Source: the human T2T-CHM13v2.0 reference genome, Homo sapiens
DNA length: 64,000 nt
Assembly: GCF_009914755.1 (NCBI RefSeq)
Contig: NC_060925.1
Strand: one strand, 5' to 3'
Shown here: positions 5,371 to 58,888 of the stretch, in pieces
How the letters are laid out: each line of letters opens with the position of its first letter
Position numbering within the stretch: position 1 is the first letter of the stretch
Notes under the pieces: model-generated
The model's input: only the letters and a program-made list of their open reading frames with translations
The model's database searches: none
What the model was told of the DNA's origin: nothing
Made by a program: the position numbers and the translations under genes

Positions 5371-5649
5371 TCATGTATCAAGATTAATTTTCTTTGGCCG
5401 CAATGGATACCATTTTCTCTGGGGGCAGTCTTTAGTTTGCTTTCTTTTCAGTACCATGTCAGAGGTTTTCCTGGAAGCAGTCTCTGTTGGTGTGGTTTCT
5501 ATCTGTGTTATAAAGTTCTCAGGTTTAGCATCTGGTTTCCTATGACAACTGGAAAAGACTTCTTGGTGAATCCTCTGGAGGTGGATAACAGGCTGCATCC
5601 TGAGAACTTGGGAAAATCCCTCTCCTTGTTCAATTAATGCAGGCAAGGA
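5371..5649 (-). CDS. NSL1: NSL1 last exon coding part (SLPALIEQ...PVIHL...RPKKINLDT*)
   Basis: GTTTGTTTGTTTGAAG acceptor; 279 nt to TGA; exon sum 846 nt = 281 aa; PVIHL at 5578-5592. Confidence 0.97.
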   Translation of the reverse strand, partial: SLPALIEQGEGFSQVLRMQPVIHLQRIHQEVFSSCHRKPDAKPENFITQIETTPTETASRKTSDMVLKRKQTKDCPQRKWYPLRPKKINLDT

Positions 5650-6497: not shown

Positions 6498-6565
6498 CTT
6501 CATGGCTTCACTGATCTCCTTTGCTACTGTTTCCCCTCTGCATTTCAAATTTTCCATATGAGGGG
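6498..6565 (-). CDS. NSL1: NSL1 exon 5 (APHMENLKCRGETVAKEISEAMK, 68 nt)
   Basis: TTTTTGCAG acceptor, AAG|GTAAAA donor, phase 1 to 0. Confidence 0.96.
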
Positions 6566-17022: not shown

Positions 17023-17625
17023 CATTCTCATTTAGCTTCCAGAACTCCCTTGGGAACAGGAAACACATTCTTTTAATCTCAGAATCCCTAATGTTGAACA
17101 GAGTGCCTAACGTGTACAGTAGGTGTTCAGTAGTCATGATGGACCAAGGCTATGATAGAGGGTGCCATGGAGGCACAAAGGAGGGTGAGATCAATCTAAC
17201 AAGGGAACCGAAGGGAGAGGGAAATCTTCACAGGTGATGTAAGAAAGTTGCCTTAATAGAGGATTTGGGGCTAGGTGAGCTGGGAGGAGGTGGGTGGTAG
17301 AGGATGTGATACATCAAAGACAAGAGAATAAATCAAGAAAGAGTAGAAAACAGGAACCAGGAAACACGATTTAAAACATGAGAGAAGGAAGGGAAATTCC
17401 CAGGACGATGATGAAAGGAACAGGCAGGATGAAAATTTTGCACCAGGCCTAGACAGCAGCCAGTCCAGACTGGAATAGGAGGACAGAAGGTTCCCAGAGA
17501 AGTATCTCCGAGGAAAAGATAAAGTTTAAAAATGGATCTGAGAGATAACCTTAAGTGTTTGCCATATTGAGATGAATTTTACAGTTCTGTTAGACACAAC
17601 AGAAAACAAAGCAAACAGAAAAATA

Positions 17626-17962
<337 letters not shown>

Positions 17963-29396: not shown

Positions 29397-31398
29397 TTAT
29401 TTACTTTCCAAGATGACAGATAAGAGTCAGTGTTAGCATGCCTCTCCCACTTGGAAGGAAAGAATAGTGGCTAGAGAGTCACACTGTGAATTTTCTTTTT
29501 TCCAAGAACCACCACAGGAAGATGGAAGGAATCCACAAACCCTCTGAAAGAAGCAGCAGGCTGGAGCCTACTGCATGAGACAGGTGAAAAACTAAGTTCC
29601 CAGAGTGTAAGCAGGGGAATGAGCCTGTCTCGGAGCACACATCCCCACCTGCAAGTCTGAAAATCCAGACCATGGGAGAAAGCCTTAACCCTACCGAGAG
29701 CTGGAATGGATTTAGTCTATGTGAAATACAAAAGTAGACGCAGCAGCATGAAGTGCCTTGTAGGCATTCCCAGTCTCCAGCATGAACAGAGGCAAGCCAT
29801 TCCTGACTGCATCTCATAGGGGCCCTCGAAGAAGCAGTCAATGAGTTCAGGGAGGGGTCATAGGGTGAAAGAAGCTCCCAGATGAATTTTGCGATATAAT
29901 CTTGAGTAGGGATGAGCTCTCCTGAACAGAACCCACAGGGTGAGTGTAAAGTGTGCTACAGACATGAGCAGAGGAGCTGGGCGTCCGGCCTTATGGGCAT
30001 ATGGAGAAAGGCATGGTTATGGCCTTGGGCAGGTCTGAGTTCCGTGCGCAGACTGCCTGGAACTAAATCCAGTAAGCGAAGCACTGTGGGAGTGAGACCA
30101 GCGTCGCCAACTGTGAAAGAGCTGGGTGAGGCTCATTGTTGCCCACTACTCTCCACTCCCTTTGGGAACTCTTCTATGCAGCAGATGCAGTTAACTACCC
30201 TCTGGAACATTATCCCAGGAGCCTGAGGTCTCAAAGAAGTTCTGAAAGAAGTTCTGAATCTTGAAACAAAAGCTCTGAAATGCACCTATATAGAACCTCC
30301 TGAAAGCATAAATCTCACAGGGCCTAAAAAACAACAACAGAATGAAAAAAAAACAAAGTATCTAAGTAACAACTAACATGATGAATAGAACAGTACCTAA
30401 CATTTCAATATTAACGTTGAATGTAAATGGCCTAAATGTTCCACTTAAAAGATACAGAATGACAGAATGGATAAAAAACCACCAAGTATCTGCTGTCATC
30501 AAGAGACTCACCTAACATATAAGGACTCATAAAAATTTAAGGTAAAGGGGTGGAAAAAGACATTCCATATAAATGGAAACCAAAAGCGAGCAGTAGTTAT
30601 TCTTATATCAGACAAAACAGACTTTAAAGCAACAACAGTAAAAAAGACAAAGAAGGATGTTATACAATGATAAAAGGATTAGCCCAACATAAGGATACTA
30701 TAATCCTAAATTTATATGCAACTAACACTGGAGCTCCCAGATTTATAAAACAATTACTATTAGATCTAAGAAATGAGACTGGCAACAACACAATAATAGT
30801 GTGGGACTTCAATACTCCACTGACAGCACTAGAAAGATCAAGACAAAAAGTCAACAAAGAAACAACAAACTTAAACTATATCCTAGAACAAATGAACTTA
30901 ACAGGTGTTTACACAACATTCTTCCCAACAACTGCAGAATATACATTCTCCTCATCAGCACATGGAACAGTCTCCAAGATAGGTGATATGATGGGCCACA
31001 AAATAAGTCTCAATAAATTTAAGAAAATCAAAATCCTATCAAGTATCTTCTCAGACCACAGTGGAATAAAGCTGGAAATCAACTATAAAAGGAACTCTCA
31101 AAATTATACAAATACATGGAAATTAAATAATCTGCTCTTGTATAATTTTTGGGTTAACAATGAAATCAATATGTAAATTTAAAAATTCTTTGAAATGAAT
31201 AATAGTGACACAACTTATCAAAACCTCTGGGATACAGCAAAAGCAGTGCTAAGAGGAAAGTTCACAGTGTTAAATGTCTACATCAAAAACCCTGAAATAG
31301 CACAGACAATTTAATGTCACATCACAAAGAAATAGAGAAACAAGAACAAACTAAACCCAAACCCAGGAGAAGAAGTAACAAAGATCAGAGCAGAATTA

Positions 31399-31939
<541 letters not shown>

Positions 31940-32506
31940 CTACAAAATCTAGAGGAGGTAGATAAGTTCCTGGAAATATATAACCCTTCTAGATTAAATC
32001 AGGAAGAAATAGAAACCCTGAACAGACCAATAACAAGCAGTGAGACTGAATCAGCAATTTTTTAAATTGCCAACAAAAAAAAGTCCAGGACCAGGTGGAT
32101 TCACAGCTGAATTCTATCAGACATTCAAAGAAGAATTATTACCAATCCTACTAAAATTATTCCAAAAGACAGAAAAAGAGGAAATCCTCCCTAAATCATT
32201 CCATGAGGCCAGTATTACCCTAATACCAAAACTAGGAAAGGACATAACAAAAAAAGAAAACTACAGACCAATATCCTGATGAACATAGATGCAAAAATCC
32301 TCAATAAAATACTAGCTAACCAAATCCAACAGCATGTCAAAAAGATAATACATCATGATCAAGTGGGTTTCAAACTAGGGATGCAGGGATGGTTTAACAT
32401 ATGCAAGTCAATAAACATGCTACATAACAGAAACAGAATTAAAAACAAAAACCATATGATCATCTCAACAGAGATGGAAAAAGCATATGGTAAAATCCAG
32501 CATCTC

Positions 32507-33135
<629 letters not shown>

Positions 33136-33156
33136 CTAGGCAAAGAAGAGACTTAC

Positions 33157-33241
33157 CTCGAAGTAATAAAAACCATATATGACAAATCCACAGCCAACAT
33201 CATGTTGAATGGGGAAAAGTTGAAAGCATTCCCGTTGAGAA
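33157..33241 (-). CDS. NSL1: Predicted alternative NSL1 cassette exon derived from antisense L1PB ORF2 ([28 protein letters not shown], 85 nt)
   Basis: CATCTTTGTCTTGTTCCAG acceptor, GAG|GTAAGT donor, stop-free in the exon 4 frame; shifts exon 5 to TGA at 6510-6508, giving 213 aa. Confidence 0.7.
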
Positions 33242-33395
33242 CTGGAACAAGACAAAGATGCCCACTTTCACCACTTCTATTCAACATAGTACTCAGCCAG
33301 AGCAATCAGACAAGAGAAAGAAATGAAGAAAATCCATATTGCAAAAGAGGAACCCAAACTGTCACTGTTTGCCAGTGATATGATCGTATACCTTA

Positions 33396-33765
<370 letters not shown>

Positions 33766-35005
33766 TCAAATCAAATTTAAAAACTCAACCACTTTTACAA
33801 CAGCTGCAAAAACAAACAAACAAACAAAAACTTAGGAATATACTTAACCAAGGAGGTGAAGGCCCTCTACAAGGAAAACTACAAAACACTGCTGAAAGAA
33901 ATCACAGATGACACAAACAAATGGAAAACACATCCCATGTTCATGGATGGGTAGAATCAATATTGTGAAAATGACCATACTGCCAGACGCAATCTACAAA
34001 TTCAACGCAATTCCCATCAAGATACCACCATAATTCTTCACAGAACTAGAAAAAACAATCCTAAAATTCATATGAAACCAAAAAAGAGCCCACATAGCCA
34101 AAGCAAGACTAAGGAAAAAGAACAAATCTGGAGGCTTTACATTATCTGACTTCAAACTATACTGTTAGGCCACAGTCACCAAAACAACATGGTACTGGTA
34201 TAAAAATAGGCACACAGATCAATGGAACAGAACAGAGAACTCAGAAATAAAGCCAAATACTTACAGTCAACTGATCTTTGACAAAACAAACAAAAACATA
34301 AAGTGGGGAAAGGACATCCTAATTGGCAAGCCACATGTAGAAGAATGAAACTGGATCCTCATCTCTCACCTTATACAAAAATCGACTCAAGATCGATCAA
34401 AGACTTAAATCTAAGACCTGAAACCATAAAAATTCTAGAAGATAACATCAGACAAACTCTTCTAAACATTGGCTTAGGCAAAGAATTCATGACTAACACC
34501 CCCAAAGCAAATGCAACAAAGACAAAAATAAATAAATGGGACCTAATTAAACTAAAAAGCTTCCGTAGAGCAAAAGAAATAATCAGCAGAGTAAACAGAC
34601 AACCCACAGAGTGGGAGAAAATATTCACAAATTATGTATCTGACAAAGGACTAATATCCAGAATCTACAAGAAACTCAAACAAATCAGCAAGAAAAAAAC
34701 AAATAGTCCCATCAAAAAGTGGGCAAAGGACATGGATAGACAATTCTCAAATAAGATGTACAAACAGCCAACAAACATATGAAAAAAATGCTTAACATCA
34801 CTAATCATCAGAGAAATGCAAATTAAAACCATAATGAGATACCACTTTACTCCTGCAAGAATGGCCATAATTAAAAAGTCAAAAAACAATAGATGTTGGC
34901 ATGGCTGTGTTGAGAAGGGAACACTTTCACAATGCTGGTGGGAATGTAAATTAGTACAACCACTATTGAAAACAATATGGAGATTCCTTAAAAAACTAAA
35001 AGCAG

Positions 35006-49338: not shown

Positions 49339-49393
49339 CTGGATCAGGGTCATATTTTAGGTCCAGTGGATGTACAACAGGGTGGTACTGCTT
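49339..49393 (-). CDS. NSL1: NSL1 exon 4 (KQYHPVVHPLDLKYDPDP, 55 nt)
   Basis: TGTTTAG acceptor, CAG|GTGAGT donor, open frame. Confidence 0.96.
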
Positions 49394-54525: not shown

Positions 54526-54604
54526 CCATAAAACAATTATCTGAAGCTTCCTGCCATGCTTGCCCATTAATGCTGATATTCTCTTGCACAGCTGATTCAA
54601 AAGT
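54526..54604 (-). CDS. NSL1: NSL1 exon 2 (TFESAVQENISINGQAWQEASDNCFM, 79 nt)
   Basis: TTTATTGCAG acceptor, G|GTATGT donor, frame continuous with exon 1. Confidence 0.96.
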
Positions 54605-58496: not shown

Positions 58497-58730
58497 CCAC
58501 TGCGCATCTCGCAGAGCGGGCTCCCGAATCTCCTCCGGCAGAGCGTCCCCGAGCTTTTGCACGAAGCGGCCGCACAGTTGTAGCATTTCGGTCACAGCCC
58601 GCTTCGAGGTGCAGCGCACCCGAAAGTCTTCTCGGGGAGTGGCGGAGACCAAGGCCTGGCTCTCTGTGCCAGCCGCGAGCTCCTTGTCCCATGGAGGGTC
58701 AAGGACCACCAACTCAGGAGACCCCGCCAT
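58497..58730 (-). CDS. NSL1: NSL1 exon 1 coding part (aa 1-78, MAGSPELVVL...PALRDAQW)
   Basis: ATG at 58730-58728 in AAAATGGCG context; 234 nt to TGG|GTACGG donor; translation recognised as the human NSL1 N-terminus. Confidence 0.97.
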
Positions 58731-58888
58731 TTTTCGTCGGAACTGTGGGCGGGGCACTCTGGGAGCGGAAAAGCGGGTTCACACTGGTGTAACCAGCATG
58801 CATCCGGCTGGAAACTCAGGACGCTGCAGCTGAAACGTTCCGGCTCCGGCTCTGCTGGCCGGTCTAAAGCGGCAGCCGCCGGGGCGCA

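What the first reader, a model, noticed from the sequence alone, without database searches (positions are those of the whole stretch)
33157..33241. Antisense-L1 cassette exon predicts an NMD-escaping 213-aa NSL1 that lacks the PVIHL motif and the C-terminal tail
Seen: on the NSL1 strand the L1PB ORF2 segment has a CATCTTTGTCTTGTTCCAG acceptor and a perfect GAG|GTAAGT donor 85 nt apart. Spliced between exons 4 and 5 it reads …[52 protein letters not shown]. The stop (6510-6508) is only 10 nt upstream of the last exon junction. Established: stops within ~50-55 nt of the last junction usually escape NMD. NSL1 PVIHL (aa 209-213) contacts HP1 and the NDC80 complex, and the extreme C-terminus binds the KNL1 RWD domains. 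Inference: the isoform keeps aa 1-166 (much of the MIS12-complex stalk) and swaps the outer-kinetochore docking region for a hydrophobic L1-derived peptide. It could be a lineage-restricted dominant-negative or a dosage sink for KMN assembly. I recall a 213-aa NSL1 isoform in annotations but cannot verify it, so the novelty would be its origin and function.
Basis: partly seen in the sequence, partly recalled or inferred. Interest (0 to 1): 0.8.

Follow-up and report, generated by a model that had tools for sequence, protein, structure and literature searches.

The report
Annotated L1-derived alternative NSL1 exon
A fragment of an old jumping gene inside the kinetochore gene NSL1 supplies an already catalogued optional exon that would give a shortened protein unable to dock the outer kinetochore, but nothing yet shows that this protein is made in useful amounts or matters.

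Summary
The sequence observation is correct in every detail I could compute. There is an 85-nt exon at 33241..33157 on the minus strand, with the stated acceptor and a GAG|GTAAGT donor. Splicing it in shifts the frame and gives a 213-aa product that shares aa 1-166 with NSL1. The TGA stop lies at 6510-6508, 10 nt before the last junction. The exon lies antisense to the reverse-transcriptase part of an L1 ORF2.

It is not new. The hub's RefSeq table lists exactly this exon. Public protein sets hold a 213-aa gibbon NSL1 with the same junction and a 222-aa macaque isoform that uses the same L1 piece.

- Both splice sites are native to this L1 family's antisense strand: 38 of 54 paralogues have both.
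- The open frame depends on a TAT codon where 46 of 54 paralogues have a stop.
- The L1-coded peptide differs between species about as often as unconstrained sequence would.

The isoform also loses helix alpha4 of the stalk, not only the PVIHL motif and the tail. A dominant-negative role is mechanistically conceivable but untested. I judge a low-level exonisation by-product most likely. Interest is low to moderate.

The parts
33157..33241 (-). 85-nt cassette exon ('exon 4a'). It is antisense to L1 ORF2 and encodes 28 residues (aa 167-194 of the isoform).
   Evidence: The hub's RefSeq row lists 'exons of other transcripts 33157-33241'.
33242..33260 (-). 3' splice site, CATCTTTGTCTTGTTCCAG. 13 of 17 bases are pyrimidines at -20..-4. 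Upstream AG dinucleotides end at -24, -33 and -36.
   Evidence: AG is present at this place in 47 of 54 L1 paralogues.
33151..33156 (-). 5' splice site, intron part GTAAGT (GAG|GTAAGT; 8 of 9 matches to CAG|GTAAGT).
   Evidence: GT is present in 43 of 54 paralogues. Position +4 is T in 44 of 54 and A in 8 of 54.
33177..33179 (-). Codon 22 of the exon in the NSL1 frame: TAT (Tyr) here, a stop codon in most paralogues. It keeps the exon open.
   Evidence: a stop in 46 of 54 paralogues, TAT in 3 of 54. Tyr is also found in the gibbon and macaque proteins.
6498..6565 (-). Exon 5. In the isoform it is read in a shifted frame (aa 195-213).
6508..6510 (-). TGA stop of the 213-aa frame, 10 nt before the exon 5/6 junction.
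49339..49393 (-). Exon 4, the upstream splice partner. Its donor is CAG|GTGAGT. Its last base supplies the first base of codon 167.
5371..5649 (-). Coding part of the last exon (canonical aa 190-281, with PVIHL, alpha5 and the KNL1-binding peptide). It is untranslated in the isoform.
   Evidence: this exon matches residues 190-281 of 8ppr_N and the 26-residue peptide 4nf9_C..
31300..34782 (+). L1 ORF2 remnant on the plus strand, interrupted by Alu insertions. Its ends were not mapped and it extends beyond this span.
   Evidence: Frame translations; Pfam RVT_1; genome copies.
32761..33144 (+). Alu-type insertion about 12-35 nt downstream of the donor on the NSL1 strand, antisense to NSL1. Its poly-T run starts about 30 nt after the donor.
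   Evidence: Rfam sub-threshold Metazoa_SRP matches on the plus strand at 32824-32938 and 32958-33105. Sequence. The hub lists this interval as masked.
33353..33688 (+). Alu-type insertion about 110 nt upstream of the acceptor on the NSL1 strand, antisense to NSL1.
   Evidence: Rfam sub-threshold Metazoa_SRP match on the plus strand at 33467-33615. The hub lists this interval as masked.

Best explanation
This is a real, already annotated alternative exon of NSL1. It was created by exonisation of an L1 ORF2 fragment (reverse-transcriptase region) that lies antisense in the 42.7-kb intron 4.

The antisense strand of this L1 family natively carries a pyrimidine-rich AG acceptor and a GT donor 85 nt apart, so the insertion delivered a ready-made pseudo-exon. 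The NSL1 copy has the stronger donor form (A at +4, giving GTAAGT) and a Tyr codon where most copies have a stop.

When the spliceosome uses the exon, the frame shifts. Translation ends in exon 5, 10 nt before the last junction, so the EJC-dependent NMD rule predicts a stable mRNA.

The encoded 213-aa protein keeps Head2, the helical connector and the extended segment (aa 1-166). It lacks alpha4 of the stalk's C-terminal four-helix bundle, the PVIHL motif, alpha5 and the KNL1-binding tail. It therefore cannot link NDC80C, KNL1C or HP1.

The exon is at least as old as the common ancestor of apes and Old World monkeys. I infer that it is most likely a low-level splicing by-product without a selected protein function.

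Shown: the anatomy, the frame, the L1 origin, the paralogue states and the primate orthologues. Inferred: NMD escape, low abundance and lack of function.
For: - Exon, frame and stop.
- Annotation: the hub's RefSeq row.
- L1 origin and orientation.
- Splice sites native to the L1: among 54 unique paralogous copies, AG is present in 47, GT in 43 and both in 38. The exon-equivalent is 85 nt long in 28 of the first 29 copies.
- Codon 22 is a stop in 46 of 54 copies and TAT in 3 of 54. All 3 TAT copies also have +4 A (Fisher p 0.0023). This suggests both states were already segregating among L1 source elements.
- Orthologues: a 213-aa gibbon NSL1 (representative of a 17-member cluster) has the same junction and is 26/29 identical over the L1 part. 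A 222-aa macaque isoform X3 is 30/33 identical, starts 9 codons earlier in the L1 and has the same C-terminal frame.
- Relaxed constraint: 3 of 28 L1-coded residues differ from gibbon and from macaque, against 4 of 166 and 3 of 166 in the N-terminal part (Fisher p 0.063 and 0.040).
- General class: in passages of PMC6108849 I read that LINE-derived exons number 1,702 detected in HeLa and 1,154 with at least 5% inclusion in some GTEx tissue, come mostly from antisense L1 in long introns, and are rarely switch-like.
- Structural loss: NSL1 32-204 is modelled, the chains resume helical form in a C-terminal four-helix bundle, and PVIHL caps alpha4.
Against: - No expression data could be consulted, so 'low level' is an inference from the class, not a measurement.
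- By my crude scores the exon's splice sites are as good as or better than those of NSL1's constitutive exons: donor 8 of 9 against 5-9 of 9, and acceptor pyrimidines 13 of 17 against 10-13 of 17.
- The frame has stayed open, and the isoform is modelled in three catarrhine species.
- hMis14 1-169 was sufficient for binding hMis13/DSN1 in yeast two-hybrid assays.
- Tail-defective NSL1 (EE mutant, 1-258) reached kinetochores and lowered NDC80 or KNL1 there when overexpressed. A dominant effect is therefore mechanistically possible.
- The constraint test rests on 3 changes in 28 residues and cannot exclude selection for truncation as such.
Confidence: 0.6

Rival explanations
1. One reading: the 213-aa protein is made, is stable, pairs with DSN1 through aa 1-166, and acts as a primate-restricted dominant-negative or sink that lowers KMN assembly.
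For: - The stop position predicts escape from EJC-dependent NMD.
- hMis14 1-169 is sufficient for hMis13/DSN1 binding in yeast two-hybrid assays.
- Overexpressed NSL1-EE and NSL1 1-258 localise to kinetochores and reduce NDC80 or KNL1 there.
- The open frame and the exon are shared by human, gibbon and macaque.
- Another MIS12C subunit, DSN1, has a functional germline splice isoform (PMC11042369; I saw only the search listing and the start of the abstract).
Against: [quoted passage not shown] Its incorporation into MIS12C is therefore doubtful.
- In place of alpha4 it carries a hydrophobic stretch: GRAVY +0.90 over 28 residues, and a best 19-residue window of 1.27, below the usual 1.6 threshold for a membrane span. 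Such a stretch may favour degradation.
- The peptide differs between species at about the neutral expectation.
- No paper on any NSL1 isoform was found.
- The abundance needed to compete with full-length NSL1 is unknown.
Confidence: 0.08
2. Control at the RNA level only: inclusion of the exon diverts pre-mRNA from the productive isoform. Inclusion is set by repressors of antisense-L1 splicing such as MATR3 and PTBP1, so NSL1 dosage is tuned and the truncated protein is irrelevant.
For: - Antisense L1 elements in long introns are bound by MATR3/PTBP1, and their exons are de-repressed on depletion (passages of PMC6108849).
- The acceptor tract holds ATCTT and TCTT motifs.
- The exon lies 16.1 kb and 26.6 kb from its neighbouring exons.
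Against: - Motif density within +/-300 nt is close to the intron average: ATCTT 1.5 against 1.8 per kb, TCTT 13.1 against 10.3 per kb.
- NSL1 does not occur in the 3 supplementary files of that paper that are held as text. Those tables may use other identifiers or may be cut.
- Without NMD the diversion would lower output only in proportion to inclusion, which is unknown.
Confidence: 0.15
3. The transcript is degraded after all, so the NMD-escape prediction fails.
For: - The review read states that some stops less than 50 nt before the last junction still trigger NMD, and that a long distance between the stop and the poly(A) tail can do so too.
- From the hub's coordinates, the last exon is about 12.5 kb long. 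The 3'UTR would therefore be very long.
Against: - The canonical mRNA carries nearly the same 3'UTR, so this cannot single out the isoform.
- At 10 nt the stop lies beyond the EJC deposition site, which is 20-24 nt upstream of the junction. The ribosome should therefore remove the last EJC.
Confidence: 0.12
4. The exon is an annotation artefact carried by a few cDNA clones and projected onto other primates. It is not used in vivo.
For: - I could not see the supporting transcripts.
- The gibbon record could be a projection of the human model.
- Splice signals of this quality occur by chance in the intron: 4 observed against 5.1 +/- 2.3 in shuffles.
Against: - The macaque model uses a different acceptor 9 codons upstream, which a projection from human would not produce.
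- The 213-aa cluster has 17 member sequences.
- RefSeq lists the exon.
Confidence: 0.05

Closest known systems
The annotated shorter NSL1 isoform: the RefSeq alternative transcript holding exon 33157-33241, and the 213-aa NSL1 cluster P0006 in public protein sets
   Same: It is the same object. The exon coordinates are identical in the hub's table. The gibbon representative has the same junction after residue 166, the same length (213 aa) and the same shifted C-terminus.
   Different: Nothing differs at the sequence level. The accession numbers and the UniProt 'isoform 2' label that I recall come from memory and from no call.
LINE-derived (antisense-L1) alternative exons, as described in Attig et al. 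2018 (PMC6108849)
   Same: The exon lies inside an antisense L1 in a long intron. Both splice sites are within the repeat. The insertion is primate-age. The event is alternative rather than constitutive.
   Different: The NSL1 exon was not found in the 3 supplementary files of that paper held as text. Its inclusion level and its response to MATR3/PTBP1 are unknown. By the position rule it yields a coding, NMD-escaping transcript rather than an obvious decay target.
Engineered NSL1 tail mutants (NSL1-EE with PVIHL changed to PVEHE, and NSL1 1-258) of Petrovic et al. 2010 (PMC2935574)
   Same: They lose the NDC80C/HP1 site and/or the KNL1 site while keeping the N-terminal part. When overexpressed they lower NDC80 or KNL1 at kinetochores.
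   Different: The mutants keep the whole structural core (about 1-205) and assemble into MIS12C. The natural isoform ends its NSL1 sequence at 166, lacks alpha4 and carries 47 foreign residues.
Germline-specific DSN1 splice isoform (PMC11042369; search listing and start of the abstract only)
   Same: It is an alternative splice isoform of a MIS12-complex subunit, reported to have a biological role.
   Different: It is described as conserved across mammals and functional. The NSL1 exon is confined to lineages that carry this L1, and it has no functional data.

Membership tests
L1-derived (exonised) cassette exon | The exon sequence lies within an L1 element. | tested here: met
   The plus strand gives Pfam RVT_1 matches on both sides of and across the exon. 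The stretch has 3978 first-look genome candidates; 40 were scored, and the 39 others are 83-86% identical.
L1-derived (exonised) cassette exon | Both splice sites are supplied by the repeat, here by its antisense strand. | tested here: met
   In register with 54 unique paralogues, AG is present in 47, GT in 43 and both in 38. The exon-equivalent is 85 nt long in 28 of 29 copies.
L1-derived (exonised) cassette exon | Transcript evidence that the exon is spliced into the host mRNA. | not testable with these tools
   No RNA data are on hand. Indirect support comes from the hub's RefSeq row and from the gibbon and macaque protein records that contain the exon.
mRNA escaping EJC-dependent NMD by the 50-55-nt rule | [quoted passage not shown] | tested here: met
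   The stop is at 6510-6508 and 10 nt remain in exon 5. The rule is as stated in PMC5437961 (passages).
mRNA escaping EJC-dependent NMD by the 50-55-nt rule | Measured insensitivity to NMD inhibition. | not testable with these tools
   This needs UPF1 or SMG1 inhibition data.
Dominant-negative NSL1 (as NSL1-EE or NSL1 1-258) | Lacks the NDC80C/HP1 motif and/or the KNL1-binding tail. | tested here: met
   The isoform shares only aa 1-166 with NSL1. PVIHL is at 209-213. The tail peptide of 4nf9_C maps to the last exon.
Dominant-negative NSL1 (as NSL1-EE or NSL1 1-258) | Still assembles with DSN1 or MIS12C and reaches kinetochores. | tested here: inconclusive
   For: residues 1-169 are sufficient for hMis13/DSN1 binding in yeast two-hybrid assays. 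Against: alpha4 and part of the core (about 1-205) are missing. No fold or complex prediction was possible, because spliced proteins cannot be handed to those tools.
Dominant-negative NSL1 (as NSL1-EE or NSL1 1-258) | Present at a level that can compete with full-length NSL1. | not testable with these tools
   No expression or proteomic data are on hand.
   No repeat library is on hand. The only measure available is that the copy's terminal branch is 0.085 substitutions per site in a tree of 50 rows (49 paralogue rows plus the NSL1 copy), built from flanking L1 sequence.

The most novel reading that the evidence does not exclude
A catarrhine-specific, L1-born NSL1 isoform is a natural brake on outer-kinetochore assembly. 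Its mRNA escapes NMD because a Tyr codon stands where the L1 family usually has a stop. Its protein captures DSN1 through aa 1-166 but offers no docking site for NDC80C, KNL1C or HP1. Regulated inclusion, for instance where repressors of L1 splicing are low, would then lower KMN loading in particular tissues.
Probability: 0.07. Interest if true: 0.6.

Novelty: already known. Interest (0 to 1): 0.25.

Why it matters
If the isoform were active, it would be a lineage-specific, transposon-born regulator of an essential chromosome-segregation complex, and a natural counterpart of the engineered NSL1 tail mutants.

As the evidence stands, it is mainly a clean worked example of how an antisense L1 delivers a ready-made exon. 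It also shows how a single codon state (TAT against a stop) decides between two outcomes: a transcript predicted to be an NMD target, with the stop 88 nt before the last junction, and one predicted to escape, with the stop 10 nt before it.

There is a practical point for anyone who tests it. The only isoform-specific tryptic peptide longer than 5 residues is 39 residues long and has no internal Lys or Arg. Its absence from standard trypsin proteomics would therefore say little.

Tried and rejected
- Literature on the isoform. Searches for accession-like terms found 0 papers. 'NSL1' with 'exonization' found 0. 'NSL1' with 'nonsense-mediated' and 'cassette exon' found 1, on another subject by its title and abstract start (not opened). 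'NSL1' with isoform, kinetochore and alternative splicing found 7, none about an NSL1 isoform by their titles and abstract starts. Phrases such as 'NSL1 isoform', 'NSL1 transcript' and 'NSL1 splice' found 4, none of them about an NSL1 isoform by their titles and term counts. One search was swamped by 'DC31' matching unrelated words. These searches cover only the open-access library and main texts.
- Supplements of PMC6108849: NSL1 does not occur in the 3 files held as text. Other files or identifiers could not be seen.
- PTBP1/MATR3 motif enrichment near the exon: none convincing.
- Transmembrane reading of the L1-coded stretch: rejected. The best 19-residue hydropathy window is 1.27, below the usual 1.6 threshold, which I recall.
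- Recurrent use of this L1 piece in other annotated proteins. The protein search with the 50-aa antisense ORF gave 128 hits at E up to 0.001. Of the 120 listed, 119 carry no name and are held by the ena, ncbi or lgn sets (mostly short ena contigs), and only the macaque NSL1 record is named. This gives no evidence either way.
- Whether the TAT and +4A states arose in place or came with the source element. Flank identity did not discriminate (79.4-85.4% for all 29 copies). The flank-only tree places the NSL1 copy next to the main TAG/+4T clade (support 0.94 and 0.75) and not inside the clade that holds two of the three TAT copies (support 0.98). The question stays unresolved.
- Subfamily naming (L1PB) and dating: not possible without a repeat library or other primate genomes.
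- Branch point: no clear motif was found by eye. AG dinucleotides end at -24, -33 and -36. I did not follow this further.

Full report
**Observation.** On the minus (NSL1) strand, the sequence CATCTTTGTCTTGTTCCAG ends at 33242. The exon runs from 33241 to 33157 (85 nt) and is followed by GTAAGT, giving the donor GAG|GTAAGT. I joined the annotated coding parts by coordinates. This gave the canonical 281-aa protein and, with the extra exon, a frame shifted from codon 167. The first stop then falls after 213 codons at 6510-6508, and 10 nt of exon 5 remain before the last junction. PVIHL sits at 209-213 of the canonical protein, and the two proteins share exactly 166 residues.

**Is it more than chance?** The signals alone are not. 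With a deliberately simple score, intron 4 (42.7 kb) holds 10 donors with at least 8 of 9 matches to MAG|GTRAGT on this strand. It holds 138 acceptors as pyrimidine-rich as this one. Four donors have such an acceptor 40-250 nt upstream, against 5.1 +/- 2.3 in 100 dinucleotide-preserving shuffles. The exon's sites are nonetheless as good as or better than those of NSL1's constitutive exons by the same score. The evidence that it is an exon comes from the hub's RefSeq row, which lists exactly 33157-33241, and from primate protein records (see 'Already known' below).

**What the DNA is.** The plus strand around the exon reads as L1 ORF2. Pfam RVT_1 matches 32207-32608 (E 3.9e-9, above the cut-off) and 33025-33375 (E 4.5e-4, below the cut-off; profile positions 91-139), and the exon lies within the second match. 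The 208-nt unmasked stretch has 3978 first-look candidates in its own genome. Of these 40 were scored, and the 39 other than itself are 83-86% identical. The L1 is interrupted on both sides of the exon by Alu-type insertions, which give sub-threshold Metazoa_SRP matches on the plus strand. The label 'L1PB' could not be tested.

**Where the splice sites come from.** I aligned the exon region with 29 paralogous copies found with the NSL1 copy as query, and with 25 further places found with one paralogue (L013) as query. Two loci of the second set were dropped because they repeat places of the first set. Among the 54 copies:
- AG is present at the acceptor place in 47.
- GT is present at the donor place in 43.
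- Both are present in 38.
- The exon-equivalent is 85 nt long in 28 of the first 29 copies.

The cassette architecture is thus a native property of this L1 family's antisense strand, not something that evolved in NSL1. Two states set the NSL1 copy apart:
- Donor position +4 is A here (GTAAGT) but T in 44 of 54 copies (A in 8).
- Codon 22 of the exon (33179-33177) is TAT here but a stop in 46 of 54 copies (TAT in 3).

All 3 TAT copies also have +4 A (Fisher p 0.0023). In a tree built from flanking L1 sequence only, two of them pair up (support 0.945) inside a 5-copy clade (support 0.978). The NSL1 copy sits beside the large TAG/+4T clade. I read this as a hint that both states already existed among L1 source elements. 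Whether the NSL1 copy inherited or acquired them is not settled. A paralogue-type stop would lie 88 nt before the last junction, in the zone predicted to be NMD-sensitive. This single codon therefore decides the predicted fate of the transcript.

**Already known, and shared with other primates.** A protein search with NSL1 exon 1, restricted to longer proteins, returned 109 proteins at E up to 1e-10 among 509 candidates. Two matter here:
- A 213-aa cluster of 17 members has a gibbon NSL1 as representative. It has the same junction after residue 166 and the same shifted C-terminus, and it is 26/29 identical to the human L1-coded part.
- A 222-aa macaque isoform X3 (7 members) contains the same L1 piece (30/33 identical). 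It starts 9 codons further upstream in the antisense-L1 frame and ends in the same C-terminus.

Both keep Tyr at codon 22. The insertion, the open frame and the use of this piece in gene models therefore predate the split of apes and Old World monkeys. From memory I put that split at roughly 25-30 million years ago. Other primate models (gorilla, tamarin, tarsier) show different tails after residue 166.

**Constraint.** Human differs from gibbon at 4 of 166 N-terminal residues, 3 of 28 L1-coded residues and 1 of 19 shifted exon-5 residues. Human differs from macaque at 3 of 166, 3 of 28 and 0 of 19 (Fisher p 0.063 and 0.040 for L1-coded against N-terminal). The L1-coded peptide changes four to six times faster than the conserved part. 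By my recalled figures for neutral divergence, that is about what unconstrained sequence would give. The numbers are small.

**Consequences for the protein.** I read passages of four papers.
- PVIHL (209-213) is needed for HP1 and for SPC24/25 binding. Residues 227-281 and 257-281 bind KNL1. The conserved core is about residues 1-205. Overexpressed NSL1-EE and NSL1 1-258 still reach kinetochores and lower NDC80 or KNL1 there (PMC2935574).
- The crystal model covers NSL1 32-204. [quoted passage not shown] This bundle is the node for NDC80C and KNL1C (PMC5101189).
- PVIHL caps the end of alpha4, and alpha5 also contacts SPC24/25 (PMC11189300).
- hMis14 1-169 is necessary and sufficient for hMis13/DSN1 binding in yeast two-hybrid assays (PMC2845078).

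The last exon matches residues 190-281 of chain 8ppr_N and the KNL1-bound peptide 4nf9_C. The isoform therefore keeps the DSN1-binding N-terminal part almost exactly. It loses alpha4 as well as PVIHL, alpha5 and the tail, so 'keeps much of the stalk' is too generous. That residue 166/167 lies in the extended segment just before alpha4 is my inference from these descriptions, not a measured fact. The replacement is hydrophobic (GRAVY +0.90 over 28 residues) but falls below the usual threshold for a membrane span.

**NMD.** By the 50-55-nt rule the transcript should escape EJC-dependent decay. The stop lies downstream of the EJC deposition site, which is 20-24 nt before the junction. The same review notes exceptions and a second rule based on 3'UTR length (PMC5437961). 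From the hub's coordinates, the long 3'UTR is nearly the same in the canonical mRNA.

**Class.** LINE-derived exons from antisense L1 in long introns are a described class. They are usually of low inclusion and are repressed by MATR3/PTBP1 (PMC6108849, passages). NSL1 was not found in the three supplementary files held as text. No motif enrichment was seen near the exon.

**Verdict.** The object is an annotated, catarrhine-shared, antisense-L1 exon. The functional proposal is mechanistically conceivable but has no support here and faces some counter-indications. It is most likely a low-level by-product (confidence 0.6). I put the dominant-negative reading at about 0.07-0.08. I found no paper on any NSL1 isoform in the library searched.

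Noticed in passing
window 33145-33352: This stretch, which holds the exon, is missing from the hub's list of masked repeats of 100 bases or more. It is nevertheless plainly L1 ORF2: it has an RVT_1 match and thousands of genome copies. A reader relying on the mask would miss the repeat origin.
   Followed up: yes
window 33105-33130 (minus strand): A long T-run, the antisense poly-A of the downstream Alu, begins about 30 nt after the donor. From memory, U-rich tracts just downstream of 5' splice sites can recruit TIA-type enhancers or hnRNP C. Whether this affects inclusion was not tested.
   Followed up: no
proteins P0001, P0008, P0023: Gorilla (230 aa), tamarin (200 aa) and tarsier (172 aa) NSL1 models each carry a different, unrelated tail directly after residue 166. 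The long intron after exon 4 seems to be a general source of alternative terminal or cassette exons in primate gene models.
   Followed up: partly
protein P0003 (macaque) against window 33242-33268: The macaque isoform starts 9 codons further upstream in the antisense-L1 frame. At the corresponding place (33270-33269) the human sequence has TG, not AG. The acceptor choice therefore differs between species.
   Followed up: partly
window 41002-40942, 19395-19283 and 17690 (minus strand): Three other donor/acceptor pairs in intron 4 pass the same crude thresholds (61 nt, 113 nt, and 54-142 nt). The last lies in a masked repeat (17592-17936). None is listed as an exon in the hub's table.
   Followed up: no
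window 58497-58744 and 54526-54604 (minus strand): NSL1's first two donors are weak by consensus match: TGG|GTACGG scores 5 of 9 and TGG|GTATGT scores 6 of 9. The L1 exon's donor is stronger.
   Followed up: no
loci L024/L034 and L027/L047: Two places in the genome were returned under two locus ids by the two own-genome searches. I counted each once.
   Followed up: yes
window 58744-58861: By the hub's table, NSL1 and TATDN3 start 116 bp apart on opposite strands, a head-to-head promoter arrangement. I did not examine it.
   Followed up: no
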